Source: Heterodontus francisci (Eukaryota). From it: 64,000 bases of DNA. A model generated the notes under the pieces. The model worked only from the letters and a program-made list of their open reading frames with translations, was not told where the DNA came from and did no database searches. The position numbers and the translations under genes were made by a program. The stretch lies in assembly GCF_036365525.1 (NCBI RefSeq), contig NC_090399.1, forward strand, positions 64,784,862 through 64,848,861, read 5' to 3'. Below, piece by piece: positions 4,817-52,090 of this stretch (position 1 is its first letter; every line of letters begins with the position of its first letter).

Positions 4817-4919
4817 CTGCAGATAGAGTGGAGAGTGGGTGATAACCTGCAGATAGGGTAGAGAGTGGTCTATAATCCAGCAGATAGGGTAGAGAGTGGG
4901 CTATAACCGGCGGATAGAG
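4817..4919. repeat. ~30-31 bp tandem repeat, about 3.5 units
   Basis: ctgcagatag(a/g)gt(g/a)gagagtgg..ataa(c/t) repeated immediately before the 40-bp array. Confidence 0.75.
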
Positions 4920-6610
4920 CTATTGTAAATGAAACTGTTCCTCCAACTCAACACTAGAGTTATTGTAAATGCGATTGTTCAGCCAGTTCAACACTAGAGT
5001 TATTGTAAATGTGGCTGTTCATCCAGTTCAACACGAGAGTTATTGTAAATGAGACTGTTGATCCATTTCAACATTAGAGTTATTGTAAATGAGACTGTTC
5101 ATGCAGCTCAACACTAGAGTTATTGTAAATGCGATTATTCATCCAGTTCAACACTAGAGTTATTGTAAATGAAACTGTTCATCCAGCTCAACACTAGAGT
5201 TATTGTAAATGAGACTGTTCATCCATCTCAACACTAGAGTTATTGTAAATGAAACTGTTCATCCAGTTCAGCACGAGAGTTATTGTAAATGAAACTGTTC
5301 ATCCATCTCAACACTAGAGTTATTGTAAATGAAACTGTTCATCCAGCTCAACACTAGAGTTATTGTAAATGAAACTGTTCATCCAGTTCAGCACGAGAGT
5401 TATTGTAAATGAAACTGTTCATCCATCTCAACACTAGAGTTATTGTAAATGAAACTGTTCATCCAGCTCAACACTAGAGTTATTGTAAATGAGACTGTTC
5501 ATCCATCTCAACACGAGAGTTATTGTAAATGAGACTGTTCATCCAGCTCAACACTAGAGTTATTGTAAATGAGACTGTTCATCCAGCTCAACACTAGAGT
5601 TATTGTAAACGAGACTGTTCATCCAGTTCAACACTAGAGTTATTGTAAATGAAACTGTTCATCCAGTTCAACACAAGAGTTATTGTAAATGAGACTGTTC
5701 ATCCAGTTCAACACTAGAGTTATTGTAAATGAGACTGTACATCCATCTCAACACGAGAGTTATTGTAAATGAGACTGTTCATCCAGCTCAACACTAGAGT
5801 TATTGTAAATGAGACTGTTCATCCAGTTCAACACTAGAGTTATTGCAAATGAAACTGTTCATCCATCTCAACACTAGAGTTATTGTAAATGGCTGTTCAT
5901 CCAGTTCAAGACTAGAGCTATTCTAAATGGGACTGTTCATCCATTTCAACATTAGAGTTATTGTAAATGAGACTGTTCATCCAGTTCAACACTGGAGCTA
6001 TTGCAAACGAGACTGTTCATCAAGTTCAACACGAGAGTTATTGTAAACGAGACTGTTCATCCAGCTCAACACTAGAGTTATTGTAAATGAGACTGTTCAT
6101 CCAGCTCAACACTAGAGTTATTGTAAATGAGACTGTTCATCCAGTTCAACACTAGAGTTATTGTAAATGAGACTGTTCATCCAGTTCAACACTAGAGTTA
6201 TTGTAAATGAGACTGTTCATCCATCTCAACACTAGAGTTATTGTAAATGAGACTGCTCATCCTGCTCAACACTAGAGTTATTGTAAATGAAACTGTTCAT
6301 CCAGCTCAACACTAGAGTTATTCTAAATGAGACTGTTCATCCAGTTCAACACCAGAGTTATTGCAAATGAGACTGTTCATTTAGCTCAACACTAGAGTTA
6401 TTGTAAATCCAAATGTTCATCTAAATTTGCACCAAGATTGTTATAAATGATGTGGTCATCCAGATCAACACAAGGTTATTATAAGTTAGACAGTTTTGTT
6501 TCCCAGCTGAATACCAGTGATACAGTAAATGACACTGTTCGTACATCTCATCACCAGGGTTACTGTCAAATAGGCTGTTCATGCAGTTTAGCACCAGGGA
6601 TCATAGCAAA
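4915..6610. repeat. 40-bp satellite array upstream of GPCR copy 1
   Basis: Unit tagagttattgtaaatgagactgttcatccagctcaacac, about 37 clear units to ~6410, then degenerate units to ~6610. Confidence 0.97.
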
Positions 6611-6699
6611 AGTATTTGCAATTTACTTTTTGAAGAAATTTCAAGAAAATATAAAATTACTTTGTTTTGCATACTCTTTCATGAACATATTATATTCCA

Positions 6700-6901
6700 C
6701 ACAAATCCTTGGAGTAAATGTGGTTCATTAAATCAGTTTGTTCAGTGGAATGTAATTAATATCCCTGCTCACATTCCCTAGATGACTGTCTACATGGAGG
6801 GTCCTCTGTAGTATTAATAAGGACTCCTCTGAATATATCGCGACATTACACGGTCAGGGTCCCGTACCTGGCAGAACAGACATTGGCGTTTCACACAAGA
6901 A
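6700..6901 (+). promoter_or_regulatory. Putative core promoter/5'UTR of GPCR copy 1
   Basis: Non-repetitive block retained in all three copies. TATA-like TATTAATAA at 6812-6820, ~90 nt before the ATG; homeodomain-type TCATTA and TAATTA at 6725 and 6753. Confidence 0.4.
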
Positions 6902-6971
6902 ATGGAATACCCTGTAATTTATCAGTTGGATCTCATTTACTATCCTCTTCTTGCAGCTGTAGGTATTCCAG
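6902..6971 (+). CDS. GPR139/142-like class A GPCR, copy 1, coding exon 1 (MEYPVIYQLDLIYYPLLAAVGIP + 1 nt)
   Basis: gaaATGG Kozak context with an in-frame stop upstream, donor CAG|GTAAGA, phase 1 matching the acceptor at 9581. It supplies the first half of TM1 missing from the ORF. Confidence 0.9.
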
Positions 6972-7953: not shown

Positions 7954-8134
7954 GTTAAAATTTCAGGTGTGCTTGCGACTGCCGGCTGGCTGCAGATTTG
8001 TGGTTCATGGAAAGCTCAAGGGGTAGATTTTGACAATAGGTGACGGAGTAAAACAAGAGATACTGAACCCGCATCCGGCTTTCCAGTTCTCCTGACTTAC
8101 AATATTGCAGAAAGTCAAAATCTAACTCCATCTG

Positions 8135-9427
8135 TAAAGACCATAGTCCAAAAGAGCCAGAGAGGCCTCGACAAGTGATATGGAACATATCCCAACAGGA
8201 CAAGAGAGCCCTCTACAAGTTATATGGAACATATCCCAACAGGACAAGAGAGCCCTCTACAGGTTGTACAGACCATAGCCCAACAGGACAAGAGAGCCCT
8301 CTACAGGTTGTACAGACCATAGCCCAACAGGACAAGAGAGCCCTCTACAGGTTGTACAGACCATAGACCAACAGGACAAGAGAGCCCTCTACAGGTTGTA
8401 CAGACCATAGACCAACAGGACAAGAGAGCCCTCTACAAGTGAAATAGAACATATCCCAACAGGACAAGAGAGCCCTCTACAGGTTGTACAGACCATAGCC
8501 CAACAGGACAAGAGAGGCCTCGACAGGTTGTACAGACCATAGCCCAACAGGACAAGAGAGCCCTCTACAAGTTGTACAGACCATAGCCCAACAGGACAAG
8601 AGAGCCCTCTACAGGTTGTACAGACCATAGCCCAACAGGACAAGAGAGGCCTCGACAGGTTGTACAGACCATAGCCCAACAGGACAAGAGAGCCATCTAC
8701 AAGTTGTACAGACCATAGCCCAACAGGACAAGAGAGCCCTCTACAAGTTGTACAGACCATAGCCCAACAGGACAAGAGAGCCCTCTACAAGTTGTACAGA
8801 CCATAGCCCAACAGGACAAGAGAGCCCTCTACAGGTTGTACAGACCATAGCCCAACAGGACAAGAGAGCCCTCTACAAGTTGTACAGACCATAGCCCAAC
8901 AGGACAAGAGAGCCCTCTACAGGTTGTACAGACCATAGCCCAACAGGACAAGAGAGCCATCTACAAGTTGTACAGACCATAGCCCAACAGGACAAGAGAG
9001 CCCTTTACAAGTGAAATAGAACATATCCCAACAGGACAAGAGAGCCCTCTACAAGTTGTACAGACAATAGTCCAACAGGACATGAGAGCCCTCTACAGGT
9101 TGTACAGACCATAGCCCAACAGGACAAGCGAGCCCTCTACAAGTGAAATAGAATATATCCCAACAGGACAAGAGAGCCCTCTAGAGGTTGTGCAGACCAT
9201 AGCCCAACAGGACAAGAGAGCCCTCCACAAGTGAAATAGAACATATCCCAACAGGACAAGAGAGCCCTCTACAGGTTGCACAGACCATAGCCCAACAGGA
9301 CAAGAGAGCCCTCTACAAGTTGTACAGACCATAGCCCAACAGGACAAGAGAGCCCTCTACAAGTGAAATAGATCATATCCCAACAGGACAAGAGAGCCCT
9401 CGACAGGTTGTACAGACCATAGCCCAC
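8135..9427. repeat. 44-bp intronic minisatellite, copy 1 (~29 units)
   Basis: Unit acaggttgtacagaccatagcccaacaggacaagagagccctct, with a variant unit acaagtgaaatagaacatatcccaac. Confidence 0.96.
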
Positions 9428-9581: not shown

Positions 9582-10477
9582 TTAACTTGGTGGCAATTGT
9601 GATCCTGTCCCGAGGGAAGTGCGGTCTCTCCAAATGCATCACTCACTACCTGGTGGCCATGGCAGCGGCCGATCTGACAGTGGTTATCGTCCATGTGATA
9701 TTACAACGGATTAATATCTTGTACTTGCCAATTAATTTCCTATCTCTGACTCCTGTGTGCAAGGTAAACTTTGTTGCATACATTGTAGCTGTAGACTGTT
9801 CTGTCTGGTTTACTGTCACCTTCACTTTTGATCGCTTTGTAGCAATTTGCTGTCAGAAGCTACAATCAAAATATTGCACCAGGAAAATGGCGAGAGTAGT
9901 TATCACTACTGTTTTTGTGGTGAGCTGTCTGAGGACCATCCCCTTTTACTACATGAATGAACCTGCCTTTATTATTGACAATATGCCATGGTTCTGTGCT
10001 TCCACAGCTGATTATTTCACTTCCCCCTTGTGGAAGGCATTTGAGTGGATCGACAGCATCATAACCCCTCTATTACCAATCCTTCTAATTCTGTTGTTCA
10101 ATGCACTAACTGTCAGAAACATTATACTAGCAAATAGAGTGCGCAGAGAACTCCGGAGTAACAGTGAGAATCAGCATGATCCAGAGGTGAAGAATCGGAG
10201 GAAATCCATGATTTTACTTTTTGCTATTTCTTCCAATTTCATCCTTTTGTGGATGTTGTATGTTGTGCATTCATTAATCTGGCCAGTGGCAAATTTCTTT
10301 TACACAGACAAATATTACAGTAACCCAATATATATTGCCCAACAAGTTGGGTTTATGCTGCAGCTTCTCAGTTCCTGCACAAATAGTTGTATCTATGGAC
10401 TGACACAGAGGAAATTCAGAGAGGAGCTGAAGAATGGGGTGATTTTTGTTTTTACACTGAACAGGAAATTATGTTAA
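9582..10477 (+). CDS. GPR139/142-like class A GPCR, copy 1, coding exon 2 (spliced protein 321 aa)
   Basis: Acceptor tttcttacag|TT. Seven hydrophobic segments: TM1 Asn (IPVNL), TM2 LVAMAAADL, TM3 FDRFVAICC, Cys pair PVCK/PWFC, TM7 TNSCIY. No disabling changes. Confidence 0.93.
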
Positions 10478-16758: not shown

Positions 16759-16789
16759 TCTAATCTATCTTTGTAAATGAAGCATCTCA

Positions 16790-23429: not shown

Positions 23430-24550
23430 CACAAAATCACAGAATAATACAGTGCAGAAGAGGCCCTTCGGGCCATCGAGTCTGCACCGCTGCATTAAAA
23501 CACCTGACCTGTCTACCCAATCCCATTTGCCAGCACTTGGCCCATAGCCTTGAATGTTATGACGGGCCAAGTGCTCATCCAGTTACTTTTTAAAGGATGT
23601 GAGGCAACCTGCCTCTACCACCCTCCCAGGCAGTGCATTCCAGACCTTCATCACCCTCTGGGGTAAAACAGTTCTTCCTCAAATCCCCCTTAAAAGGCGG
23701 CACAGTGGCGCAGTGGTTAGCACCGCAGCCTCACAGCTCCAGCGAGCTGGGTTCAATTCTGGGTACTGCCTGTGCGGAGTTTGCAAGTTCACCCTGTTTC
23801 TGCGTGGGTTTCCTCCGGGTGCTCCGGTTTCCTCCCACAGCCAAAAGACCTGCAGGTTGATAGGTAAATTGGCCATTAGCAATAGCCCCTAGTATAGGTA
23901 GGTGGTAGGAGAATATAGGGACAGGTGAGGATGTGGTAGGAATATGGGATTAGTGTAGGATTAGTATAAATGGGTGGTTAATGGTCGGCACAGACTCGGT
24001 GGGCCGAAGGGCCTGTTTCAGTGCTATATCTCTAAATCTAAATCTAAAAAAAAAATCTAAACCTCCCGCCCCTCACCTTAAAATTGTGACCCCTCGTAAC
24101 TGACCCTTCAACTAAGGGAATAGCTGCTCCCTATTCACCCTGTCCATGCCCCTCATAATCTTGTACAGCTCGATCAGGTCACCCCTCAGTCTTCTCTGCT
24201 CCAGTGAAAACAACCCAAGCCTATCCAACCTCTCTTCATAGCTTAAATGTTCCATCCCAGGCAACATCCTGGTGAATCACCTCTGCACCCCCTTCAATGC
24301 AATCACGTCCTTGCTATTATCTGGTGACCAGAATTGCACACAGTACTCCAGCTGTGGCCTAACCAAAGTTCCACACAACTCGAGCATGACCTCCCTGCTT
24401 TTGTAATCTATGCCTCGACTGATAAAGGCAAGTGTCCCATATGGCTTTTTCACCACCCTATTCACCTGCCCTTCTGCCTTCAGAGATCTATGGACAAACA
24501 CGCCAAGGTCCCTTTGTTCCTCGGAACTTCCCAGTGTCAGGCCATTCCCT
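23430..24550 (-). mobile_element. CR1 LINE 3' end
   Basis: EEQRDLGVFVHRSLK..LVRPQLEYCVQFWSP; 3' UTR at 23430-23600. Confidence 0.88.
23696..24055 (+). mobile_element. V-SINE (HE1-like) nested in CR1
   Basis: Full consensus with (tctaaa)n tail. Confidence 0.9.
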
Positions 24551-32930: not shown

Positions 32931-33271
32931 TGGCGCAGTGGTTAGCACCGCAGCCTCACAGCTCCAGCGACCCGGGTTCAATTCTGGGTACTGCCTGTGT
33001 GGAGTTTGCAAGTTCTCCCTGTGTCTGCGTGGGTTTCCTCCGGGTGCTCCAGTTTCCTCCCACATGCCAAAGACTTGCAGGTTGATAGGTAGATTGGTCA
33101 TTATAAATTTCCCCTAGTATAGGTAGGTGGTAGGGAAATATAGGGACAGGTGGGGATGTGGTAGGAATGTGGAATTAGTGTAGGATTAGTATAAATGGGT
33201 GGCTGATGGTCGGCACAGACTCGATGGGCCGAAGGGCCTGTTTCAGTGCTGTATCTCTAAACTAAACGAAA
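32931..33271 (+). mobile_element. V-SINE (HE1-like), same insertion as 10612-10952
   Basis: Essentially identical sequence and flanks. Confidence 0.9.
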
Positions 33272-36200
33272 CAAATGAAAGGTAAAGAATGTAAAAATGG
33301 ATAACATGGTTATACATGAAATACTCCATCATTAATTTGGCCACTAAGTTTGTGGTTTTAGAGCAACAATACACCATCTAATTTATTCCACATAAAGGAG
33401 AGATATTGCTAATAAAAAAATGTCCCGACATGCACTATAATGCACAGTTGAATGAACACATGTAAACATTTTGTTTCCAGAACAAACTCACATAGTTTAT
33501 AAAAGGGAAAATTGCAGGAAAAAAGATGCCTCAAAAAAGATGTCTAAAAGTTATCAAATGTTTGGAAAACATCTGTTCATTGACATTACCTTGACTCTCT
33601 CTCTTTCCCTAACAGAATTTCATGGTATTCCCCATATTTGTTAGCCAACTCCAAGGGACAGATACTTGAGCATTATTGCTACACAACTGGATCTTGCTGG
33701 AGCACATGAAGCTGGCCTCACTTTCTCTAAGCACCTAATCTCCAGGGTCACCCTGAAATGCAAAGATAACCCCTGTGTCTTTTTCATTACCATTAGCCTT
33801 TTTATAGCCTGATCCCCTGCCTGCTCCTGTCTCACCTCCAATGACAGGTGCATGAATGTCTTCACCACTTAGTTAAGAACATCCATTCACCTGCTTCTGT
33901 TGAAATTCATGTTTGCTTCCCATCAAACCAAACCTATCCGAGGCTCCCTTTGTCCTGGCACTGAACCAAATGCTTTTGCTGGCTGTCCCTGTCTCTATTC
34001 GAACTTGTCGTGTCCACAAAACCCACCGCCTGCTGTCTTGAGCTAGTTCCACTTTAATGACAACTCAACCTCTGTTCCATTATCCGATGTTAGTTGATAA
34101 TTAACACCTGACCTTCTTCTCAGCTTCTGCCCCCTCCCTTTCAAAACCACCATTGAAAGCCCTTCCTCAAATGTCAATCCTCAACTCCTCTGTTCTTCCA
34201 AACTGTAACCACATGGCGAACCCCCATTTCATCATCAAATTCCTTCAACATGTTACTTCCTTCCATATCCAAGCTCATATTTCTGAACATTCCAAATTTG
34301 ATTCTCTTCAATCACACTCTCTGTGGGTGATGCACAATCCCTCTACAGGACCTCCTCAATCTCTCTGCAACCTATCATGTGGTTGACTACACCATCTCCT
34401 GTAATGTCTCTGAACCACTTCATGAAGACGTGTTTCCTGATTTCTCTCTTCAAAGGCCTGTTTTTTTTTAGACTCTGCCCCCCCTCGAGCCTTAAACTCC
34501 CCAACCAGCAGAAGTTGTTTATCTCTCTCGAACCCACCTTTTCCTCTTAATATATTGAAAACATCGATCAAATCACCCCTTAAACTTCTAAATTGCAGTA
34601 AATGCAAATGTAGTTTGTGTAATATCCTCTTGTAAATTAACCATTGTCGTCCAGGTATCATCTTGGTAAATCATCGCCACTACACTCCCTACAAGGCTAA
34701 TATATCCTTTGTAAGTTGTGGTGCCCCGAACTGCTCACTGTACTCCAGGCGTGGTTTAACCAGGGCTTTGTATACCTGAAGCATGACGTCTACTCTCTTG
34801 TATTCTATTCCTCCAGATATAAAAGCCAGAATTCCATTCGACGTTTTGATTGTGATTTGTCCCTGTTCATGTCATTTTAATGATCAATGTACCGGGATGC
34901 ACATGTCTCTTTGTTTCCAGCTTTCTACCATTTAGGAAGTAACCTGTTCTATCCTTTTAATGTCTCATGTTGATGACCTCACATTTTCTCACATTGAAAA
35001 CCATTTACCACAGTTTTGTCTCTTCACTTAATCTATCAATATGTCTTTATATTTTTATCCTTCCATCTGCACTACTTACAACACTGGTCAGTAATTTACC
35101 TTCAATTTCATCAGCTTCAAATGTAGCTAACTGTTGCATTTATCAAATTTCTTCTGAAAATCTATATCAGTACAATTTGTAAGACATTCCCCTGCCCACT
35201 ACTTTAGTCACCTCTTGATTTATCAGGCATGACCTAACCTTGACAAAGTCACACTGACTCCCTCTGATCAGCTGAAAATGTTCAAGGTGTTCAGTCACAC
35301 TATCCTGAATGATAAGGATAATGCACTCTAACATTTCCTGACTGTGGATGTTAGGCTAACTGCTCTTTAATTCTCTGTGTTTCTGCTCTCTACTTTCTGA
35401 AATAGTGGATTGCCACACATAGTTTTCTAATCTGAAGGAACAGTTCACGAATCGGGAGAGCTTTGGAAGATTATTTAACAAGATTATCACCCAGTTCCTA
35501 TGAAAATTCCAGCATGTAAACCATATGGTCCTAGGGATTTCTCACTCTTAAACACAATTATATTTTTCACTTCTGTTATTTTCTGTGCGTTATTTTTGAC
35601 TGATGCCTGCCCCTGATTCCACATTAATTTACGAGGAATGTCTGTCATGCTGACCTCTTCCTCTAATGTAATTAATGAACCAAAATAATTATTCAGCTGG
35701 TCGGCCCTTTCCTTATTTTCAATGACAATATCACCACTAAATGTTTTCAAGGAACCCACATTGTTCCTCTTTTCCCCAATGTAACTGAAAGGTTTTTGTG
35801 TTGGTGTTGATATCTCTTGCATGGTTCTTTTCATACACAATTTTAGCAGCCTTTACTATCTGTTTTGTCATCAATTGCTGTTATTCTATCTTTCCCAATG
35901 GTCAGGATATGTGTTTTTATTTACATTTTGTATGCTTTCTCTTTCAGTTTTATGTTTCATCTTAAATCTTTAGTTGCTCATGACTGTTTATTGGCTAGTT
36001 TGTATTTTGCCCCTGAGGGTATATACTGGTTCTGTATCATATTACATACTTTTTGATCATCTTCCACTGTTCTTATGTCATTTTACCCATGAACAGATTT
36101 GTCCAGTTTACTGTGGACACTGTTTCATCCCATTGAGTCAGCCTTACTTAAATCTAGAATCTTAGTAACTGTTTTGTGATTCTCCATTTCAAACACTCCG

Positions 36201-38444
36201 TTAAACTCAATAATATTATCATCGAATGGTTATAGCACAGAGGAGGCCATTTGTCCCATTGTGTCTGTGCCATTCTCTCCCTAGTCTAGTCCCACTTCCC
36301 CGCCTTTTCTTTGTATCACTGCATTTCATTTCTCATTCAATTCCCTTTTGAAAGCCATGATTGAATCTGCCTTCATCGTACTCTCAGGCAGTGCATTCCA
36401 GATCCTAATCACTCACTGTGTAAAAAGCTTTTCATTATGTCACCGTTGCTTATTTTGCCAATCACTTTAACTCCGTCTCCTCTGATTCTCGATCCTTCCA
36501 CAACAGGAACAGTTTCTCCCTATCGACTGTATCCAGATCCATCATGGTATTGACTGTCCTCCTCTAAAATCCTTCATTAATGGTCATTTTTAACCAACTA
36601 TCTTCAATGTCCCAGCAAACATTTATTTCTGACTGTGTCTATAATTCCTTTTGATAGCTTTTTTCTATGTGAAAGGTGCTATACAAATGCAAGTTAGTTT
36701 TTTTTACTGTGTTTCCAGTTACAACACCGATGTTCAAAAGGAAAGGTGGGGCAATCGCTCTAAATTAAGACAATTCACCTTAACATCAGCAGTGGACAAG
36801 ATCTTGAGAGCATAATGTAGAGTAAAATTAATACTCAGTTGAAAATATACCATTTGATTACAGGAATACACAATTAGACACCATTCTTTGAAAACACATA
36901 ATAGAGTCTCTTGTTTGGGAAAATACAGTTTATATTGTGCACACTGATTGACACAGACTGACAGTGTATTAATGAATCCAGTAGTTTGAGAATAAAGTTG
37001 ATTCAACACATTCAACAGAAAATACTGATTAATAGATGGAGGACTGAGGTCACAGGTCACTTTATAAAACAGTAGTTCGGCCTCAACTGGAGGATTGTGT
37101 CCAATTCTGGGCACTGCACTTTAGGATGGTTGTGAAGGATTTGGAGAGGGTGCAGAAAAGATTTATGAGAATGATTCCAGGAGTGAGGTGTCATGGAGAT
37201 GGAGAGAGAGAGAGCAGACACACATTTTAGGTGATCAGCAAAAGAAACAAAGGCGACATGAGAAAACCTTTCATGCACCAAGTGGTTAAGGACCTGGAAT
37301 ACACAGACTGAGAGTGTAGTGGTGGCAGATTCTATTGTGACTTTCAAAAGGGAAATGGATAAGCACCTGAAGATAAAAAAAGTGCATGGTTATGGGGAAA
37401 GGGTGGGGGTATGGAACTGGCTGAGATGCTCTTGCAGGGAGCTGGCATGGGACTGGACAGGCCGAATGGCTTCCATCAGTGCCATGAAACATTCCATGAT
37501 TCTATGATGCTAGAATGTCACAGCATTGTCACCGGAGATCACAGGGCCTCAAAATAGAGACATAGAGCAGTCACCATGAATGGTTCAGCACAAGTGTTGT
37601 TCCCAGAACACAAATACACTGGAGTTTTGCATTGGACAAATGATCAAACTGTACAAGTGAAAAGAATTCACTATCAGCCGGTGTGTAAGAGATTTCAGGA
37701 GGATGTTGACATTTTAGTAGATTGGGCACAGAGAAAATAGGAAAAATACATTGCAGAATGAAATGAAAGGGATTGAGCAGCTGAAAGACATGAAACTCCC
37801 GATCTTTCATTTATATAGCACACCACATCTTCCAAAGCTGTCTCTGCTCTTCATTACCATTGGTTTGCTCTTGAATTGCAGTCCCTGTGGTTCCTGGAGG
37901 TAAGTCTGACAGCAAATCTACACACAAGGTCCCACAAACAGCAATACGATAAATGCCCAGTTAAATTTGATGTGTTAATCGCTATTAACGATGACCAAGT
38001 TAAGATGATAACAACAATGAGAAATATTTAATGATGAACACAGACTAGAGAAAGCTTTTAATGAACTGACTGGAGAAATATTTTCACCCAAGTTGGTGAA
38101 TTGAAAACGATAGGGCTCACATTAAATATCATGATCGATGAAATTGTGGTGAAATCTCACCCTCAAACTCTTTCATCCAACACTTTACTGAAAGCCTGAT
38201 GTTATTTAACACAAACCAAAACCATGTTTATTTTCGAGCATAGTCCACAAAATCACAGCTATAGTTAATTTCCTCTTTAAGATTTTACTTGGAAATTCCC
38301 ACATTCATTTGTTCTTCCAACTACAGAAAGACAGAGAAGTTAAACAAATCTTTGGGCTCAATCAGTCAGTGCTGGTGTTCATTATCACAACAGCAAATAG
38401 TTCACATGTACTCAGACTGTTTCCATATCCCCTCAATCAGTCAA

Positions 38445-39281
38445 GACAGCAGTTTGATTGGCCAAAACTCCACAAAGATGTGGTGGAGTACTGCAGGAGT
38501 TGCCATATATGCCAGGTTGAGGGGCAACCCCAAGCTACAATGAAACCTGCACCCTTAAGTCCTGTACTGGTGTTAGGAGGACCCTCCAGCAGAGGGCTGG
38601 TGAACTGTAAGGGACCCCTGCTGAGAACAAAAGGGGACAGGCAGACACAAAGTTGGAAAAAAGTTTAGAAAGAGAAGGGGAAAAAGTGACTAAGAGGGCA
38701 GGTTAAAGGACATCTGGGAGGAATCCCAGATGAAAACACCTACTGTCCGGTCAGCCAACCCCAGAAAATTTGAAATGTTAGATCCCACATCCTCCTATGT
38801 AAATGCAGACACTAGAAACACCCCACCAGAGTTGCTAACAGCATTTACAGGAACTCCAATACCTACTGAAGACACATGAACTCCAAAAGAGAAAAGTCTC
38901 CTGCAGTGAAGAAGGTTTGAGAAGAATACTAGGCCCCAATGAAAAGCAATATCTACCGACAATCATGGACTCTGCGGTGAGCTTGAAGAACCATAACAAA
39001 AACTCCAGATATTGCCTCAAACATTTCTACTTTATTTTTCTTCTGCTCTTTTCTGTCTCTATTTGCATCTGTGTATCACATGTGCCTGCTAGCATGGGCA
39101 AGTCGTGTAACCATATGCATCAACCGAATTAGAGTTTAAGTTTAATAAATTGCAACTTTTCTTCTTTAAACCTAAGAAAGCCTGCTAGGGTTAGGTGTGT
39201 TTAAAAATTAAACCCTGTTACAGTAAGACCAGGTGAAATTTGAAAGGAACCCCTATTCCTCTTTCTCACTAGGTCGTAACA
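38445..39281 (+). mobile_element. Gypsy (Gmr1-like) integrase fragment plus LTR
   Basis: FDWPKLHKDVVEYCRSCHICQVEGQPQATMKPAPLSPV..GPLLRTKG, AATAAA at ~39144, ends ggtcgtaaca. Confidence 0.78.
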
Positions 39282-42199: not shown

Positions 42200-42760
42200 T
42201 ACACAGCTTACAATGTTGTCTATCTTTGGATCATCAGCAGATTTGGATATACAGCTTTCTATCCCATCACGTTAATAAATATGGTGACTAGTTGAGACCC
42301 CAACACAGATCATTCTGGACATTACTAGTCACATCCTGTCAATTCGAGTGCCTGTCCATTATCAGGACTCTCTGTCTCCTGCTGCTCAGCCAATTGCTGA
42401 ATGAGGCAAATAATCTGCCTTTAGTTCAATAAACCTCAACTCGAGCTATTATTCTGTGATGAGGGAATATTTAAAAAGCCTTCTGCAAGTCCATACAGGT
42501 ATAATCTACAGACATTCCCCTGCACATTACATTAGTCAAATCTTCAAATAATTCATTCAGGTTCATCAGGCATGAGTGACACTTTACAAACCCATGCTGT
42601 CTGTCTCTTAGAGCAGCTGCAAATGTTCAAGGTACCCAGTCACACTATCTTTTATTATAGACTTCAGTAATTCCCCCACAGTATATGCTGGGCTAACTGA
42701 TCGATAATTCCTCAGTTTCCCTCTGACACCTTTCTGACAGAAATATACCTGTCCAGGTGA
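42200..42760 (-). mobile_element. Old CR1 RT fragment
   Basis: KGVRGKLRNYRSVSPAYTVGELLKSIIKD, DLQKAF. Confidence 0.7.
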
Positions 42761-43170
42761 CAAGCAGCTGCCGAGCCATTCAGTGTGTTTACAATATACA
42801 GTGTTCTCATGAAGGGTCACTGACCTGAAACGTTAACTCTGCTTCTCTCTCTCCACAGATGCTGCCAGACCTGCTGAGTATTTACAGCATTTCTTGTTTT
42901 TATATACAGAGTCACTTTCTGTTTACAGGGTTCATTGATGTCCCCAAATAATTTGAGGCTGAAGTAGTAACACTGGTTAAGAGCTGAACAGGGACCTCAT
43001 AAGTTATCAAAGTTCTTGCCTGCAGCAACCATTCATCTGCACTGCGATTGGCAGAGCAACAAATTCCATTGTCTGCTCATAATTCAGGGGAAGGAAACCA
43101 ATCAGCAAGTAGATCACTCTCCATGTGATCAAAGGATGTGAACAGGCTTTTCTGTGTGGTAAACCCCCAA

Positions 43171-46100
43171 GGGGACAGTAGCATAGTGGGAATGTTACTG
43201 GATCATTAAACTAGCAGCCTTGACTAATGTTCTGGAGATATAAGTTCAAATCATCCATGAAAGACGGGGGAACTTAAATTCAATTAATTAATAAATCTGG
43301 AATAAAATGCAAGTTTCTTTACTAATGGTCATGAAACTACCAGAATGTCACAGAAACATATCTGGTTCACTAATGGCCTGCAGAAGAGGAGATCTGCCAT
43401 CCTTACCCAGTCTGCCCTACGGGGGACTCCAGACCCACAACAATGTGCTTGACCCTTAAGCATCCTCTGAAATGGTCTAGCAAGCCACTCAGTTGTATCA
43501 AACCATTACAGAAAAGTCTGGGCACTGGAAACAACAAAGGTACATCCTGCCCAGTGGACCCTGCAAAGTTCTCCTCACTAACATCTGGGGACATGTGCCT
43601 GACATAGTCATACTCACAGAATCATACCTTACAGATAGTGCCAGACTCCTCCATCATCATCCCTGGATATCACCTGTCTCACTGACAAGATGGACCCACG
43701 AAAGACATACATCTGGGAGGATGTGGCTCTGGTAGTCTCCAACATTGAGTGTGGGTCCAATGAAGTCTCATGTTATCAGGTCAAACACGGGTAAGGAAAT
43801 CTCCTGTTAATTATCACCAAGTGCCCTCCCTCAGCTGATGTATCAATGCTTCTCCATGTTGGGCATAGTATGTGCTCTGCTTGGGGGACTTCAGCGTCCA
43901 TCACTAACAATAGCTTCGTAGCACCATTACAGACTGAACTGGCCAAGTGTCGAATGACATATCGGCCTGTTGGAGGATGCGAGGCTGGCTGCATAGGGGC
44001 CCTGGCGTGTCCTGAACATGGTGAAAATACAACACAGGCCATTTGCATGGAAAGCAGCAGGTCATAGACAGAGCTAAGCGATCCCACAACCAACATCAAA
44101 TCAAATCTCTGCATTCTGACAAAATCCAGTCATGAATGGTAGTGGACAATTAAACAACCAATTGGAAGAGGAGGCCCCAAAAATATGGCCACCCTCAATG
44201 ATGGGGAAGCCCAGCACGTCAGTGCAAAAGCATTTGCGACAATCTCCAGCCAGAAGTGCCGAGTGGATGATCCATCTCAGCCACCTCCTGAGGTCCCCAG
44301 CATCACAGATGCCAGTTTTCAGCCACTTCGATTCACTCAATTTGATACTCGGAAATTGTTAAAGGCACTGGATACTGCAAAGGCTATGGGCCATGACAAC
44401 ATCCTGGCTGTAGTACTGAAGACCTGTATTCCAGAACTAGACATGCCCCTAGCCAAGCTGTTCCAGTACAGCGACCACACTGGCATCTACCCGACAATGT
44501 GGAAAATTGCCCACGTATGTTCTGGCCACAAAAAGAAGAACAAGTCCAATCTGGCCAATTACCGCTCCATCAGTCTAAACTCGATCATCAGCAAAGTGAT
44601 GGAAGGTGTCATTGATAGTTCTATCAGGGCAGCACTTGCTCAGCAATTGCCTGCTCCCCGATGCTCAGTTTGGGTTCTACCAGGGCCACTCAGCTCCACA
44701 CCTCTTTACAGCATTGCCACAAAAATGGATAAAAGAGCTGAATTCCAGAGGTGAGGGGAGAGTGACTGCCCTTGACATCAAAGGAGCATTTGACCAAGGG
44801 TGGCATCAAGGAGTACCAGCAAAATTGAAATAAATGGGAATAAAGGGGGAAGTGCTCCACTGGTTGGAGTCATATCTAGCACAAAGGAAGATGGTTGTGG
44901 TTGTTGGAAGCCAATCATCTCAGTCTCAATACATCACTGCAGGAGTTTATCAGGTTAGTGTCCTCGGCCCAATTATCAGCAGCTGCTTCATCAATGAACT
45001 TCCCTCCATCATAAGGTCATAAGTGGGGATGTTCGCTGATGATTGCACAATGTTCAGTATCATTCATAACTCCTGAGATACTGAAGCAGTTTGTGACCAC
45101 ATGCAGTAAGACCTAGACAACATTCAGGCTTGGGCTGGTAAATGGCAAGTAACATTCGCAACTCACAAGTAGCAGGCAATGACCATCTCCAACAAGAGAG
45201 AATATAACCATCTCCCCTTAACACTCAACAACATTACTATCGCTAAAGCTCCCACCAGCAATATCCTGGGGGTCACCATTGACCAGAAACTGAACTGGAA
45301 CAGACACCTATATATAGTGGCTACAAGAGCAGGCTAGAGGCTGGGAATTCTGTGGCAAGTAACTCTTCTCCTGACTCCGCAAAGCCTGTCCACCATCAAC
45401 AAGGCACAAGTCAGGTGTGTAATGGGAAAATCGCCACTTGGCTGGTTGAGTGAGCTTCAACAGCACTCAAGACACTCAGCACCATCCAGGACAAAGCAGC
45501 CCTCTTGATTGGCAACCCATCCAACACCTTAAACATTCACTCCTTCCAGCACTGGTGCACAGTGGCAGCAGTGTGTACCATCTACAAGATGCATTGCAGC
45601 AACTCACGAAGGCCCTTTCGACAGCACCTTCCAAACTCGCGACATTTGCCACCTAGAAGAGCAAGGGCAGCAGATGCATGGGAACACCACCATCTGCAAG
45701 ATTCCCTCCAAGTCACACAGCATCCTGGAACTATATCCCTGTTCCATCACTGTCCCTGGGTTTTTTCGCTGGAGCGAAGGAGGCTGAGAGGGGACATGAT
45801 AGAGGTGTATAAAATTATGAGAGGCATAGATAGGGTAGATAGCCAGAGTCTGTTACCCATGGTAGGGGTCACTAAAACTAGAGGGCATGGATTTAAGGTG
45901 AGATGGAGGAGTTTTAAAGGGGATCAAAGGGGTAACTTTTTCACACAAAGAATAGTGGGTATCTGGAATGAGCTGCCTGAGGAGGTGGTGGAGGCAAGAA
46001 CAGTAGCAACATTGAAGAGGCAACTGGCAGGTACTTAAATGAGCAAAGCATAGAGGGATATGGAATTAATGCAGGCAGGTGGGGTTAGTGGAGATAGGCA

Positions 46101-46319
46101 TTGTGGTCGGCATGGACGCGGAAGGCCGAAGGGCCTGTTACTATGGTGTACGAGTCTCTGCCTCTATGCCTCTAACTGCCTTCCTAAAAGCACTGTGGGT
46201 GGACCTACCCCACATGGACTGCAGAAGTTCAAGAAGGCAGTTCACCTTCTCAAGGGCAATTAGGGATGCACAATAAATGCTGACCTTGCCAGCAATGTTC
46301 CCATCCCAAGGATAAATAA
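43171..46319 (+). mobile_element. Near end-to-end LINE with tRNA-like head, single decayed APE-RT ORF (internal deletions) and 3' tail
   Basis: Same 5' part as 24999-27042, continuing through LGVTIDQKLNW to the tail caagggcaattagggatg.caataaatgctg. Confidence 0.87.
45760..46173 (+). mobile_element. CR1 3' end nested in the LINE
   Basis: FSLERRRLRGDMIEVYKIMRGIDRV..TRGHGFK..FFTQRIVGIWNELP, (ctctatg)n tail. Confidence 0.9.
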
Positions 46320-46574
46320 CAAGTTGCTTCAGCCCCAAATCTAATGTGCACAACACAGAGAAACAAACACATCATCCAAACCGCTGTTCAGAATGCTCGC
46401 TTCCTAACTTTACAGAGGATTGATACACCAATGTCTCCCTCTGCTCACTCTCCCAATACTTCCACCAGAAACCTGGACCACAATCCAACCATTAACAATC
46501 CACTCTCAGGCCAATCTACAGCTCACCTGTTCTGCATGGACAGAATGTGATTAAACACAAATTAACACTTGGCA

Positions 46575-48750
46575 CCAACACAAGGGCTACTGTCAAGGCT
46601 GTTCACATAGATCAAAACCAGCTTGACTGAAAATGAGACTGTTGATCAAGCACAACACTGGGTTTTTTGCTCCTGATACTGTTCATCCAGCTCAACACTA
46701 GAGTTATTGTAAATGAAACTGTTCATCCAGCTCAACACTAAAGTTATTGTAAATGAGACTGTTCATCCAGCTCAACACTAGAGTTATTGTAAATGAGACT
46801 GTTCATCCAGCTCCACACTAGAGTTATTGTAAATGAGACTGTTCATCCAGCTCAAAATCAGAGTTATTGGAAATGAGACTGTTCATCCAGTTCAACACTA
46901 GAGTTATTGTAAATGAGACTGTTCATCCAGCTCAACACCAGAGTTATTGGAAATGAGACTGTTCATCCAGTTCAACACTAGAGTTATTGTAAATGAGACT
47001 GTTCATCCATCTCAACACTAAAGTTATTGTAAATGAGACTGTTCATCCAGCTCAACACGAGAGTTATTGTAAATGAGACTGTTCATCCAGCTCAACACTA
47101 GAGCTATTGTGAATGAGACTGTTCATGCAGCTCAACACTAGAGTTATTGGAAATGAGACTGTTCATCCAGTTCAACACTAGAGTTATTGTAAATGAGACT
47201 GTTCATCCAGTTGAACACGAGAGTTATTGTAAATGAGACTGTTGATCCAGCTCAACACTCGAGTTATTGTAAATGAGACTGTTCATCCAGTTCAACACGA
47301 GAGTTATTGTAAATGAGACTGTTCATCCAGCTCAACACGACAGTTATTGTAAATGAGACTGTTCATCCAGTTGAACACGAGAGTGATTGTAAATGAGACT
47401 GTTGATCCAGCTCAACACCAGAGTTATTGTAAATGAGACTGTTGATCCAGCTCAACACTTGACTTATTGTAAATGAGACTGTTCATCCAGTTCAACACGA
47501 GAATTATTGTGAATGAGACTGTTCATCCAGTTCAACACGAGAGTTATTGTAAATGAGACTGTTCATCCAGCTCAACACGACAGTTATTGTAAATGAGACT
47601 GTTCATCCAGTTGAACACGAGAGTTATTGTAAATGAGACTGTTGATCCAGCTCAACACCAGAGTTATTGTAAATGAGACTGTTGATCCAGCTCAACACTC
47701 GACTTATTGTAAATGAGACTGTTCATCCAGTTCAACACCAGAGTTATTGTAAATGAGACTGTTGATCCAGCTCAACACTCGACTTATTGCAAATGAGACT
47801 GTTCATCCAGTTCAACACGAGAATTATTGTAAATGAGACTGTTCATCCAGTTCAACACTAGAGCTATTGTAAATGAGACTGTTCATCCAGCTCAACACTC
47901 GAGTTATTGTAAATGAGACTGTTCATCCAGTTCAACACTCGAGTTATTGTAAATGAGACTGTTCATCCAGTTCAACACTAGAGTTATTGTAAATGAGACT
48001 GTTCATCCAGTTCAACACGAGAATTATTGTAAATGAGACTGTTCATCCATTTCAACACGAGAATTATTGTAAATGAGACTGTTCATCCAGCTCAACACTA
48101 GAGTTATTGTAAATGAAACTGTTCATCCAGCTCCACACTCGAGTTATTGTAAATGAGACTGTTCATCCATCTCAACACTCGAGTTATTGTAAATGAGACT
48201 GTTCATCCATCTCAACACTCGAGTTATTGTAAATGAGACTACTCATGCAGCTCAACACTAGAGTTATTGTAAATGAGACTGTTTATCCAGTTCAACACTA
48301 GAGTTATTGTAAATGAGACTGTCCATCCATCTCAACACTCGAGTTATTGTAAATGAGACTGTTCATCCAGTTCAACATGAGAGTTATTGTAAATGAGACT
48401 GTTCATCCAGTTCAACATGAGAGTTATTGTAAATGAGACTGTTTATCCAGTTCAACATGAGAGTTATTGTAAATGAGACTGTTCATCCAGTTCAACATGA
48501 GAGTTATTGTAAATGAGACTGTTCATCCAGTTCAACGCTATAGCCATTGTAAATCCAAACGTTCATCTAATTTTGCACCAAGATTATTATAAATGATGTC
48601 GTCATCCAGCTCAACACAAGGTTATTATCAGTTAGACAGTTTTTTTTCCCAGCTGAATACCAGTGATACAGTAAATGACACTGTTCCTACATCTCAACAC
48701 CAGGGTTACTGTAAAATAGGCTGTTCATCCAGTTTAGCACCAGGGATCAA
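46575..48750. repeat. 40-bp satellite array upstream of GPCR copy 3
   Basis: Same unit, about 47 clear units at 46680-48555, degenerate at both edges. Confidence 0.97.
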
Positions 48751-49043
48751 TGCAAAAGAATTTCCAATTTTTTGAAGAAATTGCAAGAAAATACAAAATT
48801 ATTTTGTTTTGCATACTCTTTCATTAACATATTTTATTCCACAAAAATCCTTGGAGTAAATGTGGTTCATTAAATCAGTTTGTTCAGTGGAATGTAATTA
48901 ATATCCCTGCTCACATTCCCTAGATGACTGTCTCCATGGAGAGTCCTCTCTGGTATTAATAAGGGCTCCTCTGAATATATCTTGACATTACACGGTCAGG
49001 GTCCCGTACCTGGCAGAACAGACATTGGTGTTTCACACAAGAA

Positions 49044-49113
49044 ATGGAATACCCTGTCATTTACCAGTTGGATCTCATTTACTATCCTCTTCTTACAGCT
49101 GTTGGTATTCCAG
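49044..49113 (+). CDS. GPR139/142-like GPCR, copy 3, coding exon 1 (MEYPVIYQLDLIYYPLLTAVGIP)
   Basis: Same 70-nt exon with CAG|GTAAGA donor. Confidence 0.9.
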
Positions 49114-49756
49114 GTAAGACAGTGAAATGAGACAGTAAAAGTTAAATATCAATTTGTGCCTGTCAATGTTATATGTTTATCGAGCTCACCCTGTTCTGTT
49201 GTATCAGCGAAGTGTGCAGTAATTCTCTTCTTTTCTTAATGTGGTTTTTAATTGTAAAAATACCATTTCTTCAATTTTCACCACAACATTGAACAAACAA
49301 TCCCATTTATTGTTTGCAGTACAAAATCCTCCACAAAGGTTACACTGGTATCAGATCAGAAATAAGTTAGTATTTTAATGTCCCAAAGTTGTTAAGTTGG
49401 TTACACGTGTAACGTGGTTATTTGAATAATGATTAATTTTTAACATTGTTTTATGCATAAATATGTTCTTTTTTTACTGTGGAAGTCTCACTTATTGCTT
49501 AGACATATTTCCAGTCTAGATTGTTTTTGTGGTTGGTTTAAGTGGATGGGGAAATTCAGCAATTTCGTGTAGGTGCACAAGCTGCTAGTGGCTGGCTGCA
49601 GATTTGTGGCTCATGGGTAGATTTTGACATCATGTGATAGTGTTAAACAGGACATATTGAATCCGTATCTAGCTATCCATTTCTCCTGACTCACAATATT
49701 GCAGAAAATCAAAATCTAACTGTTGTAGCAGGATGTGAGAGTTCACAATCCAAGTT

Positions 49757-50787
49757 GGAAAGACCATAGCCCAACAGGACAAGAGAGCATTCTACAGATT
49801 GTACAGACCATAGCCCAACAGGACAAGAGAGCCCTCCACAAGTTGTACAGACCATAGTCCAACAGGACAAGAAAGCACTCTACAAGTTGTACAGATCATA
49901 GCCCAATAGGACAAAACAGCATTTGCAGGTTGTACAGACCAAAGCCCAAGAGGTCAACAAGGCATTCTACAGGTTGTACAGACCACAGCCCAACAGGACA
50001 AGAGAGCCACCTGCAAGTTGTACAGATCATAGCCCAATAGGATAAGAGAGCATTTTACAGGTTGTACAGAGCACAGTCCAACAGGAAAAGAGAGCCCTCT
50101 ACAAGTTGTACAACCATAGTCCAACAGGACAAGAGAGTCCTCTACAAATTGTACAGACCATAACCCAAAAGGACAGGAGAGCATTCTACAGGTTGTACAG
50201 ACCATAGCCCAACAGGACAAGAGAGCCCTCTACAAGTTGTGCAGACCATAGACCAACAGGACAAGAGAGCATTCTGCAGGTTGTACAGACCATAGCCCAA
50301 CAGGATAAGAGAGCCCTCTACAAGTTGTGCAGACCATAGCCCAATAGGACAAGAGAGCATTCTACAGGTTGTACAGACCATAGCCCAACAGGACAAGAGA
50401 GCATTCTCCAAGCTGTACAGATCATAGCCCAACAGGACAAGAGAGCATTCGACAGGTTGTACAGACCATAGCCCAACAGGACAAGAGAGCCCTCAACAAG
50501 TTGTAAAGACCATAGCCCAGCAGGACAAGAACACACTCTTCAAATTGTACAGATCATAGCCCAACAGGAGAAGAGAGCACTCTACAAATTGTACAGACCA
50601 TAGACCAACAGGACAAGAGAGCATTCTGCAGGTTGTACCGACCATAGCCCAACAGGACAAGAGAGCCCTCTGCAGGTTGTACAGACCATAGCCCAACAGG
50701 ACAAGAGAGCATTCTACAAGTTGTACAGACCACAGCCCAACAGGACAAGAGAGCCCTCTACAAGCTGTACAGACCATAGCCCAACGG
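49757..50787. repeat. 44-bp intronic minisatellite, copy 3 (~23 units)
   Basis: Same unit with gagcattct/gagccctct variants. Confidence 0.95.
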
Positions 50788-51155
50788 GGCAGAGTTGATC
50801 TTTTTTTTCATTTTGGAGAAAGTTGTTCCTTATAAAAGAGTAACTGTGTGTTTCACACACATTAATTCTCCAGAAATATCACAATATATATATTTTTTAC
50901 CTCAGCACCTTTGCCTCCTATTTGACATCAGCATCTTTATTCACATTTTCACTCATCCTGTAGTTTCATTTTCCACATTTGCCAGAGATTGCTCGGCCCA
51001 CCAGTGAACAGTTCAACTTTTTATTAAAATATATATTTTGTTCAGAACTAGAAAACTGATATGTCAATACTTTCTTAATCAACTTTAGATAATTCTTCAA
51101 ATAAAAGATTTTAGGACAGTTTTGAGGTAATTTTTAGGTTTCCTGTTTCTTACAG

Positions 51156-52090
51156 TTAACTTGGTGGCAATTGTGATCCTGTCCCGAGGGAAGTGCGGTC
51201 TCTCCAAATGCATCACTCACTACCTGGTGGCCATGGCAGCGGCCGATCTGACGGTGGTTATCGTCCATGTGATATTACAACGGATTAATATCTTGTACTT
51301 GCCAATTAATTTCCTATCTCTGACTCCTGTGTGCAAGGTAAACTTTGTTGCATACATTGTAGCTGTAGACTGTTCTGTCTGGTTTACTGTCACCTTCACT
51401 TTTGATCGCTTTGTAGCAATTTGCTGTCAGAAGCTACAATCAAAATATTGCACCAGGAAAACGGCAAGAGTGGTTATCACTACTGTTTTTGTGGTGAGCT
51501 GTCTGAGGACCATCCCCTTTTATTACATGGATGAACCTGCCTTTATAATTGATGATGTGCCATGGTTCTGTGTTGCCACAGCTGATTATTTCACTTCCCC
51601 CTTGTGGAAGGCATTTGAGTGGATCGACAGCATCATAACCCCTCTATTACCAATCCTTCTAATTCTGTTGTTCAATGCACTAACTGTCAGAAACATTATA
51701 CTAGCAAATAGAGTGCGCAGAGAACTCCGGAGCAACAGTGAGAATCAGAATGATCCAGAGGTGAAGAATCGGAGGAAATCCATGATTTTACTTTTTGCAA
51801 TTTCTGCCAATTTCATACTTTTGTGGATGTTGTATGTTGTGCACTCATTAATCTGGCCAGTGGCAAATTTTTTTTATGTTGACAAATATTACAGTAACCC
51901 AATATATATTGCCCAACAAGTTGGATTTATGCTGCAGCTTCTCAGTTCCTGCACAAATACTTGTATCTATGGACTGACACAGAAGAAATTCAGAGAGGAG
52001 CTGAAGAATGGGGTGATTTTTGTTTTTACACTTAATGGGAAATTATGTCAAAAACAAATAACTAGCATTGACCTGGAACCGAGCAAATAG
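51156..52090 (+). CDS. GPR139/142-like GPCR, copy 3, coding exon 2 (spliced protein 334 aa)
   Basis: Acceptor tttcttacag; intact 7TM frame; 13-aa longer C-terminus QKQITSIDLEPSK. Confidence 0.93.

What the first reader, a model, noticed from the sequence alone, without database searches (positions are those of the whole stretch)
4915..52090. Tandem array of intact orphan GPR139/142-like GPCRs in a stereotyped satellite-bearing cassette: candidate expanded chemosensory receptor family
Seen: three intact two-exon GPCR genes in one orientation, spaced 23.3 and 18.9 kb, each with a ~10-aa N-terminus, DRF in TM3 and NSCIY/NTCIY instead of NPxxY. Each has the same architecture: 40-bp satellite, promoter, 70-nt exon, intron with 44-bp minisatellite, large exon. 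Established: mammalian GPR139 and GPR142 are single-copy receptors activated by aromatic amino acids, and cartilaginous fishes have very few classical OR genes. Inference: birth-and-death tandem expansion of a small-ligand GPCR is the usual signature of a chemosensory or immune-sensing repertoire, so this may be an uncharacterised sensory receptor system in sharks.
Basis: partly seen in the sequence, partly recalled or inferred. Interest (0 to 1): 0.85.

Follow-up and report, generated by a model that had tools for sequence, protein, structure and literature searches.

The report
Large orphan receptor expansion in sharks
These three horn-shark genes belong to a large family of orphan cell-surface receptors that multiplied in sharks and rays from an apparently single ancestral gene and diversified their ligand pocket, which makes the family a candidate unrecognised chemical-sensing repertoire, although where it is expressed and what it detects is unknown.

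Summary
The three intact two-exon class A GPCR genes are real, at the stated spacing. They are horn shark (Heterodontus francisci) genes that RefSeq labels 'probable GPR139'. The 'cassette' is a recent segmental duplication (mostly 91-99% identical blocks, gene conversion), so the satellites give no evidence of function. The genes are under purifying selection (pN/pS 0.09-0.22). They belong to a very large family: 2420 database clusters at E<=1e-10, all 115 named of the best 120 from 20 shark, ray and skate species, at least 32 horn-shark clusters. They are not GPR139 orthologues (23-24% identity, 1 of 4 ligand residues kept). Their sister is an apparently single-copy amphibian/sturgeon orphan gene (support 100/100) that keeps 3 of 4 GPR139 ligand residues and a highly conserved pocket. 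In sharks the pattern reverses: the pocket and extracellular half diversify while the G-protein face stays conserved. That fits a multi-ligand repertoire, like nematode srw receptors, which arose from related neuropeptide receptors. I found no usable expression or ligand data, so chemosensory function (about 0.5) is inferred; immune, reproductive and neutral readings remain open. My paper searches found no description of the family.

The parts
4915..6408 (.). 40-bp satellite array upstream of gene 1 (37.4 copies, decaying to about 6600)
6902..6971 (+). gene 1 coding exon 1 (70 nt: N-terminus and outer TM1), phase-1 intron follows
8133..9426 (.). 44-bp minisatellite in intron of gene 1 (29.4 copies)
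9582..10477 (+). gene 1 exon 2; spliced protein 321 aa; matches RefSeq XP_067865234.1 except that the RefSeq model has another C-terminus
27045..29720 (.). 40-bp satellite array upstream of gene 2 (66.9 copies)
30191..30260 (+). gene 2 coding exon 1 (70 nt)
31427..31745 (.). 44-bp minisatellite in intron of gene 2 (7.3 copies)
31901..32796 (+). gene 2 exon 2; spliced protein 321 aa, identical to XP_067865235.1 (Heterodontus francisci)
46631..48732 (.). 40-bp satellite array upstream of gene 3 (52.5 copies)
49044..49113 (+). gene 3 coding exon 1 (70 nt)
49751..50785 (.). 44-bp minisatellite in intron of gene 3 (23.6 copies)
51156..52090 (+). gene 3 exon 2; spliced protein 334 aa, identical to XP_067865236.1
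4915..20547 (+). segmental duplicon 1 (9432-14875 is 99.1% identical to 31751-37195; 14065-20547 is 95.5% identical to 56168-62622)
24545..38725 (+). segmental duplicon 2 (24545-27035 is 97.3% identical to 42717-45207)
42717..62622 (+). segmental duplicon 3

Best explanation
The three genes are young members of an elasmobranch-wide receptor repertoire that most likely works in chemosensation. An ancestral jawed-vertebrate orphan GPCR of the GPR139/MIP/FMRFamide-receptor clade, still apparently single-copy in amphibians and sturgeon, was amplified by repeated tandem segmental duplication with gene conversion (shown). The copies keep the class A activation core and a conserved cytoplasmic face, so they probably share one G-protein pathway (conservation shown; coupling inferred, and Gq only by analogy with GPR139). 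They lost the ancestral GPR139-like pocket and diversified TM3, TM5-7 and ECL2 (shown). Different subfamilies therefore probably detect different external molecules, most plausibly peptides or amino-acid derivatives given the retained disulphide and hairpin ECL2 (inferred). Expression in sparse sensory cells of nose, mouth, gill, skin or gut is inferred, not shown.
For: Family size: 2420 of 3317 candidates at E<=1e-10; 115 of the best 120 are named, all elasmobranch, from 20 species; 29 of 120 are horn-shark clusters on 16 contigs, plus 3 more. 119 representatives at 50% identity reach E<=1e-30. Of 10 deep-branching members looked up, 10 are elasmobranch (9, 1). Sister gene: 20 amphibian clusters, each led by a different species, plus 1 sturgeon; joined with the shark family at 100/100. 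Relative site rates, TM2-7: amphibians pocket 0.27 vs other TM 0.89 (p=2.5e-5), outer half 0.64 vs inner 0.89; 147 well-covered family members pocket 1.16 vs 0.80 (p=0.007), outer 1.17 vs inner 0.62 (p=9e-11); 31 horn-shark paralogues pocket 1.39 vs 0.87 (p=0.001). Among five near-identical horn-shark copies, 8 of 27 variable sites fall in the 25-residue ECL2 (p=5e-4). pN/pS 0.09-0.22 shows the copies are maintained as proteins. GPR139 ligand residues: 22 of 22 amphibian proteins keep 3 of 4; 0 of 181 family rows keep 4 and 4 keep 3. Precedent: nematode srw receptors derive from related neuropeptide receptors, turn over rapidly, and are proposed to sense environmental peptides (PMC2576165, passages). 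Known shark olfactory repertoires are small (catshark: 2 OR, 6 OR-like, 32 V2R; PMC11979771 section 13).
Against: No expression evidence assignable to the family. The 50 most abundant and specific genes of the catshark brain-plus-olfactory library held no GPCR, though that list also misses V2Rs. PMC10116579 (abstract) explains the catshark nose by V2R-type microvillous neurons. Two skate loci labelled GPR139 showed 'little or no expression' (DRG marker, 1.5% of nuclei, adjusted p=1) and 'a few scattered cells' (spinal cord marker) in an embryo panel; I could not tie either to this family. In two shallow clades matched to the amphibian tree length, the pocket is not faster than other TM sites (1.01 vs 0.93, p=0.37; 0.87 vs 0.87, p=0.81), only unprotected. 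No dN/dS above 1 was seen (ECL2 0.6, n.s.). Pocket diversification marks any multi-ligand family, immune ones included. Monophyly of the shark family has only 83/88 support.
Confidence: 0.5

Rival explanations
1. Immune or barrier-sensing repertoire: the receptors sit on granulocytes, mast-like cells or somatosensory endings and detect microbial, parasite or damage peptides, like FPRs and MRGPRs, possibly filling the place of the MAS/MRGPR group that sharks lack.
For: The same signature (tandem clusters, rapid turnover, diversified extracellular face) is typical of FPR/MRGPR families (recalled). PMC8455134 reports that MAS1 and related receptors are absent from cartilaginous fishes (passage). 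One skate locus labelled GPR139 was picked as a DRG cluster marker (weak, not assigned to the family).
Against: No hit for GPR139 names in the one supplement file held for a nurse shark spleen single-nucleus paper (4,750 characters, so nearly uninformative). No sequence kinship to FPR or MRGPR: best solved relatives are GPR139 and neuropeptide receptors.
Confidence: 0.22
2. Endogenous or reproductive signalling: an expanded set of receptors for species-specific peptides in testis, sperm, oviducal gland or brain, keeping the neuropeptide-receptor role of the clade.
For: The clade's known members are neuropeptide or amino-acid receptors (PMC12208981 section 8). The family keeps the C3.25-ECL2 disulphide and a hairpin ECL2 typical of peptide receptors. 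Several catshark V2Rs and ORs are testis-enriched.
Against: Receptors for endogenous ligands tend to stay single-copy with a conserved pocket, as the amphibian sister gene does. Dozens of paralogues per species with chemically different pockets (position 3.32: K37, Y36, R22, L21, S14, N9 of 181 rows) need many ligands.
Confidence: 0.14
3. Mostly neutral amplification: the gene sits in duplication-prone, repeat-rich DNA; copies multiply by unequal crossover helped by satellites and are held only by weak, redundant purifying selection, with relaxed rather than adaptive pocket change.
For: The window is a young duplicon full of retroelement debris. Gene 1 is a conversion mosaic (p=2e-7). Truncated or disrupted relatives lie on the same contig (P0060, P0105). 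No dN/dS above 1 was seen.
Against: pN/pS is 0.09-0.22 even in the newest copies. Subfamilies mixing sharks and batoids persist. The activation core is near-invariant (D2.50 179 of 180, R3.50 176 of 179, N7.49 179 of 180), while the variation is biased to the extracellular side.
Confidence: 0.14

Closest known systems
GPR139 / GPR142 (vertebrate orphan receptors for L-Trp and L-Phe)
   Same: Best solved-structure match by sequence (single protein E 3e-9, family profile E 1e-27). Shared non-canonical TM7 without P7.50, N at 5.58, W6.48.
   Different: Only 23-24% identity in structural alignments. Of F109, H187, W241 and N271 (PMC5430874 abstract) only W is kept; I91, D181 and F281 stand at the others (mapped on the alignments). 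The family has the C3.25-ECL2 disulphide and a ~12-residue longer ECL2, which GPR139 lacks in those alignments. Dozens of copies instead of one. GPR142 was never retrieved by any search.
Unnamed amphibian/sturgeon 'probable GPR139' gene (e.g. Pleurodeles XP_069092602.1)
   Same: Sister group at 100/100, 32-34% identity, same short N-terminus and ICL motifs.
   Different: Apparently single-copy, pocket highly conserved, keeps 3 of 4 GPR139 ligand residues and a basic residue at 6.51; no function known to me.
Nematode srw putative chemoreceptors and srw-like expansions in molluscs and flatworms
   Same: Rapid birth-and-death expansion from a neuropeptide-receptor clade (myosuppressin/FMRFamide receptors; PMC2576165 and PMC11682238 passages). 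The atlas feature search lists FMRFamide-receptor-like/Srw clusters at 0.96-0.98.
   Different: Not srw by Pfam: the window proteins hit 7tm_1 and weakly Srx, not Srw. Independent vertebrate origin. The srw ligands themselves are speculative.
Vertebrate olfactory/vomeronasal families OR, TAAR, V1R/ORA, V2R/OlfC, and FPR/MRGPR clusters
   Same: Clustered, multi-copy, birth-and-death receptor genes with compact coding structure.
   Different: No sequence kinship beyond class A in the searches run; V2Rs are class C. Sensory expression is demonstrated for those families and not for this one.

Membership tests
Class A (rhodopsin-like) GPCR | 7tm_1 profile above cut-off; seven TM helices; D2.50, DR3.50, C3.25-ECL2 Cys, P5.50, W6.48, N7.49/Y7.53 | tested here: met
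GPR139 orthologue | Ligand-site residues F3.33, H5.43, W6.48, N7.39 | tested here: not met
   1 of 4 in the window proteins; 0 of 181 family rows keep all four
GPR139 orthologue | High sequence identity to human GPR139 and single-copy status | tested here: not met
   23-24% identity; at least 32 horn-shark clusters
GPR139 orthologue | Groups with GPR139/GPR142 orthologues in a tree; conserved synteny | not tested
   no GPR139 or GPR142 orthologue was returned as a usable protein, so none is in the trees; no flanking genes in the window
Wider GPR139-related clade (GPR139/142, MIP/SPR, FMRFamide-receptor-like) | GPR139 is the best solved relative; chordate GPR139-like orphans are the nearest non-shark relatives | tested here: met
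   the fold search alone does not single out GPR139
Nematode-type srw family | Pfam PF10324 Srw match | tested here: not met
   0 of 3 window proteins at E<=0.01; precomputed on 1 of 120 hits
OR / TAAR / V1R / V2R chemoreceptor families | Family profile match or nearest-relative status | tested here: not met
   Pfam returns only 7tm_1 and Srx; TAAR13c is a remote PDB hit at E 3e-4 against 3e-9 for GPR139
Chemosensory receptor repertoire (functional class) | Large lineage-specific, clustered, birth-and-death expansion | tested here: met
Chemosensory receptor repertoire (functional class) | Diversified ligand pocket with conserved signalling face | tested here: met
   (clear across the family and within horn shark; in two shallow clades only the outer-versus-inner contrast holds)
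Chemosensory receptor repertoire (functional class) | Positive selection (dN/dS>1) at pocket sites | tested here: inconclusive
   only three coding sequences available; ECL2 pN/pS 0.6, not significant
Chemosensory receptor repertoire (functional class) | Sparse expression in sensory cells | not testable with these tools
   no RNA data; supplements searched gave two unassignable skate rows; the catshark tissue atlas supplement could not be read
Chemosensory receptor repertoire (functional class) | Activation by environmental ligands | not testable with these tools
   needs a heterologous assay

The most novel reading that the evidence does not exclude
Sharks, rays and skates have an additional, so far uncounted vertebrate chemoreceptor family, possibly larger than their V2R repertoire. 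It was built from a GPR139-related neuropeptide-type receptor in parallel with nematode srw receptors and is expressed in olfactory or extra-nasal sensory cells to detect waterborne peptides or amino-acid derivatives. This would resolve the mismatch between the sharks' reputed smell and their tiny OR/TAAR/V1R repertoires.
Probability: 0.35. Interest if true: 0.92.

Novelty: new variant of a known kind. Interest (0 to 1): 0.7.

Why it matters
Published surveys describe cartilaginous fishes as poor in GPCRs and in olfactory receptors (PMC8455134 passage; PMC10116579 abstract). A family with at least 32 distinct horn-shark members, and probably dozens per species, hidden under one automatic label, would change that inventory whatever its function. 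Because an apparently single-copy amphibian and sturgeon sister gene keeps the ancestral pocket, the step from one conserved receptor to a diversified repertoire can be tested directly: existing catshark tissue RNA-seq would show where the family is expressed. If it is sensory, it is a new origin of a vertebrate chemoreceptor family. If it is immune, it is a shark counterpart of FPR/MRGPR clusters.

Tried and rejected
Satellite cassette as a functional module: rejected. The shared sequence runs on through kilobases of retroelement debris at mostly 91-99% identity, array sizes vary from 7 to 67 units, and a related 44-bp array stands alone at 39.7 kb. A role of the arrays in promoting unequal crossover is possible but untested.

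Assembly artefact: unlikely. The copies differ at 15-42 coding bases, mostly silent, and in insertions.

Short N-terminus and NxCIY as sensory hallmarks: rejected, since amphibian, coelacanth and amphioxus relatives share them.

Getting true GPR139/142 orthologues for the tree: an amphioxus query returned only 9 amphioxus proteins of 1797 candidates, so the trees lack GPR139, GPR142, TRHR and named invertebrate receptors.

Fold searches place the model among many peptide receptors within 1.5 Z units and do not discriminate.

Expression from unnamed short-contig hits: the five examined lack exon 1 and look genomic, so they give no evidence.

Literature: searches (listings only) and term searches in the main texts of PMC11979771, PMC8455134 and PMC9826928 found no description of this family. 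'GPR139-like' returned 0 papers; GPR139 plus shark returned 4 unrelated ones. Supplements gave no GPR139 rows in 5 of 6 papers, with a scanned file unread in two of them. One 2018 shark genome paper was not held, and subscription journals are not covered.

Rfam: 0 matches.

Rows dropped: the tree used 219 of 301 HMM-matched proteins, after a coverage filter and removal of one 789-aa repeat-bearing outgroup. One search left out TM1 because many database models lack exon 1, and removed 4 disrupted or mis-modelled horn-shark rows from the horn-shark set.


Full report
Observation. Each has a 70-nt coding exon, a GT-AG intron and a large second exon, giving open frames of 321, 321 and 334 aa with start codons 23,289 and 18,853 nt apart. 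All three match Pfam 7tm_1. An AlphaFold model from a 94-sequence alignment shows seven TM helices, TM1 starting at residue 5, and a hairpin ECL2, with mean pLDDT 87. The 40-bp arrays upstream and the 44-bp arrays in the introns are present. No fourth copy or remnant exists in the window.

The cassette. A self-comparison shows that the repeated unit is much larger than gene plus satellites: 9432-14875 matches 31751-37195 at 99.1%, 14065-20547 matches 56168-62622 at 95.5%, and 24545-27035 matches 42717-45207 at 97.3%. The shared flanks include reverse-transcriptase fragments. The stereotyped layout is therefore recent segmental duplication. Gene 1 is a mosaic: in coding bases 1-333 gene 2 is the odd one out (11 private sites against 2 for gene 3), and in 334-963 gene 3 is (28 against 1), p=2e-7, which points to gene conversion or unequal crossover. 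The satellites may help such events, but nothing here shows it. Despite their youth the copies are under purifying selection: pN/pS 0.09, 0.22 and 0.21, each with p<=1e-5.

Identity and family size. Genes 2 and 3 are identical to Heterodontus francisci RefSeq proteins XP_067865235.1 and XP_067865236.1, and gene 1 corresponds to XP_067865234.1 apart from its modelled C-terminus. Two more near-identical copies lie on the same 74.5-Mb contig. The homologue search found 2420 clusters (90% identity) at E<=1e-10 among 3317 candidates. [quoted passage not shown] Twenty-nine are horn-shark clusters, on 16 different contigs by my tally, and adds three more. The exhaustive search of 50%-identity representatives gave 119 at E<=1e-30. 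The 10 deep-branching members whose names I looked up are all elasmobranch. I saw only the best 120 of 2420, so the per-species total is a lower bound. Dividing 2420 by a few dozen genomes suggests dozens per species, but that figure includes fragments and pseudogenes (inference). No holocephalan appeared among the named hits.

Relatives. The nearest non-shark proteins are an amphibian gene (20 clusters, each led by a different species) and a sturgeon protein (25 hits of 1675 candidates), 32-34% identical to gene 3. A 40-row maximum-likelihood tree joins them with the shark family at 100/100; the shark family itself is one clade at 83/88 (the 219-row tree agrees). Further GPR139-like orphan lineages in coelacanth, teleosts, lamprey and amphioxus lie outside. 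Human GPR139 is the best solved relative by sequence (E 3e-9; family profile E 1e-27) but only 23-24% identical. PMC5430874 (abstract) names F109, H187, W241 and N271 as the residues needed for Trp/Phe activation. Mapped through the printed alignments, these are I91, D181, W247 and F281 in gene 3. None of 181 family rows keeps all four and 4 keep three, whereas 22 of 22 amphibian proteins keep three. So the label GPR139 is an automatic best hit: these are a distinct sister lineage, not GPR139. GPR139 and GPR142 themselves could not be placed in the trees.

Mechanistic signature. I compared site rates using a standard list of 37 class A pocket positions (recalled, not from a call). In the amphibian orthologues the pocket is strongly protected (0.27 against 0.89 for other TM sites) and the outer half is slower than the inner half. 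In the shark family the pattern reverses: pocket 1.16 against 0.80, outer TM half 1.17 against inner 0.62, and extracellular loops 1.56 against intracellular 0.86. Horn-shark paralogues alone give pocket 1.39 against 0.87. Position 3.32 holds K, Y, R, L, S or N. Among five near-identical horn-shark copies, 8 of 27 variable sites are in ECL2 (p=5e-4). The activation core stays nearly invariant. Against this: in two shallow clades matched for tree length the pocket is merely unprotected (p=0.37 and 0.81), with only the outer-versus-inner TM contrast significant (p=0.003, 0.013). No dN/dS above 1 could be shown from three sequences. The short N-terminus and odd TM7 motif are shared with the amphibian gene and are not sensory adaptations.

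How it most likely works. Shown: amplification by tandem duplication and conversion, purifying selection, loss of the ancestral pocket, extracellular diversification and a conserved cytoplasmic face. Inferred: many ligands feeding one signalling pathway, probably peptides or amino-acid derivatives, given the clade's known ligands (PMC12208981 section 8) and the retained disulphide and hairpin. The closest precedent is the nematode srw family, which expanded from related neuropeptide receptors and is proposed to detect environmental peptides (PMC2576165 passages; PMC11682238 passages). I put chemosensation in nose, mouth, gill, skin or gut at 0.5, immune or barrier sensing at 0.22, endogenous or reproductive signalling at 0.14 and mostly neutral amplification at 0.14.

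Expression. I found none assignable to the family. A skate somatosensory preprint lists two loci labelled GPR139, one with 'little or no expression' and one in 'a few scattered cells' (PMC13621994 supplement rows; main-text passages); I could not link their gene ids to family members. Five other papers' supplements had no such rows. The catshark tissue atlas, the most relevant source, has a supplement that could not be read and may bear directly on this. Its main text does not mention GPR genes.

Novelty. The genes are annotated in RefSeq, so they are not new sequences. Nine paper searches (listings seen) and three main-text term searches found no description of the expansion. The whale shark paper instead stresses a paucity of GPCRs in cartilaginous fishes, and surveys count only OR, TAAR, V1R and V2R. 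The library misses subscription journals and one key shark genome paper, so prior notice cannot be excluded. Verdict: a real, large and apparently undescribed elasmobranch receptor expansion with the sequence signature of a multi-ligand repertoire; a new variant of a known kind of system; sensory role unproven but directly testable with existing RNA-seq. Interest 0.7.

Noticed in passing
window 62661-63980: Two 573-bp arms, 97.9% identical and inverted, flank a short 85-codon open frame at 63235-63489 that looks like a GIY-YIG endonuclease fragment of a Penelope-like element (recalled resemblance; no Pfam hit). Probably a young Penelope-type insertion that ends duplicon 3.
   Followed up: partly
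window 39681-40676: A 44-bp minisatellite (22.8 copies) related to the intronic unit (best match 35 of 44 bases) with no GPCR exon nearby, suggesting a dispersed minisatellite family.
   Followed up: partly
window 2946-3293 (-), 26428-26847 (+), 38210-38665 (+): Decayed retroelement fragments: reverse transcriptase (two) and an integrase zinc-binding piece. The first lies just upstream of satellite 1, where unit 1 stops matching the other two units.
   Followed up: partly
window 7634-7947, 10612-10956, 17557-17901, 23692-24053, 30923-31236, 32931-33276, 54378-54763, 59632-59977: Eight copies of a ~310-370-nt dispersed repeat at 75-92% identity between non-duplicon copies, SINE-like by appearance (recalled); its presence or absence differs between the three units.
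   Followed up: no
window 10475-10516 and 32794-32835: Genes 1 and 2 stop at TAA where gene 3 has CAA and runs 13 residues further; the downstream frame in genes 1 and 2 is still open to the same later stop.
   Followed up: no
proteins P0234, P0240, P0259, P0275, P0281, P0279: At least three further GPR139-like orphan lineages in non-mammalian chordates (amphibian/sturgeon; coelacanth/silverside; anchovy/lamprey; plus amphioxus), all auto-labelled GPR139 or uncharacterised. None was mentioned in the papers I read.
   Followed up: partly
amphibian orthologues P0234, P0305-P0323: They carry N instead of D at 2.50 (22 of 22) and S instead of N at 1.50 (20 of 20), an unusual loss of two class A core residues, while keeping a GPR139-like pocket.
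   Followed up: no
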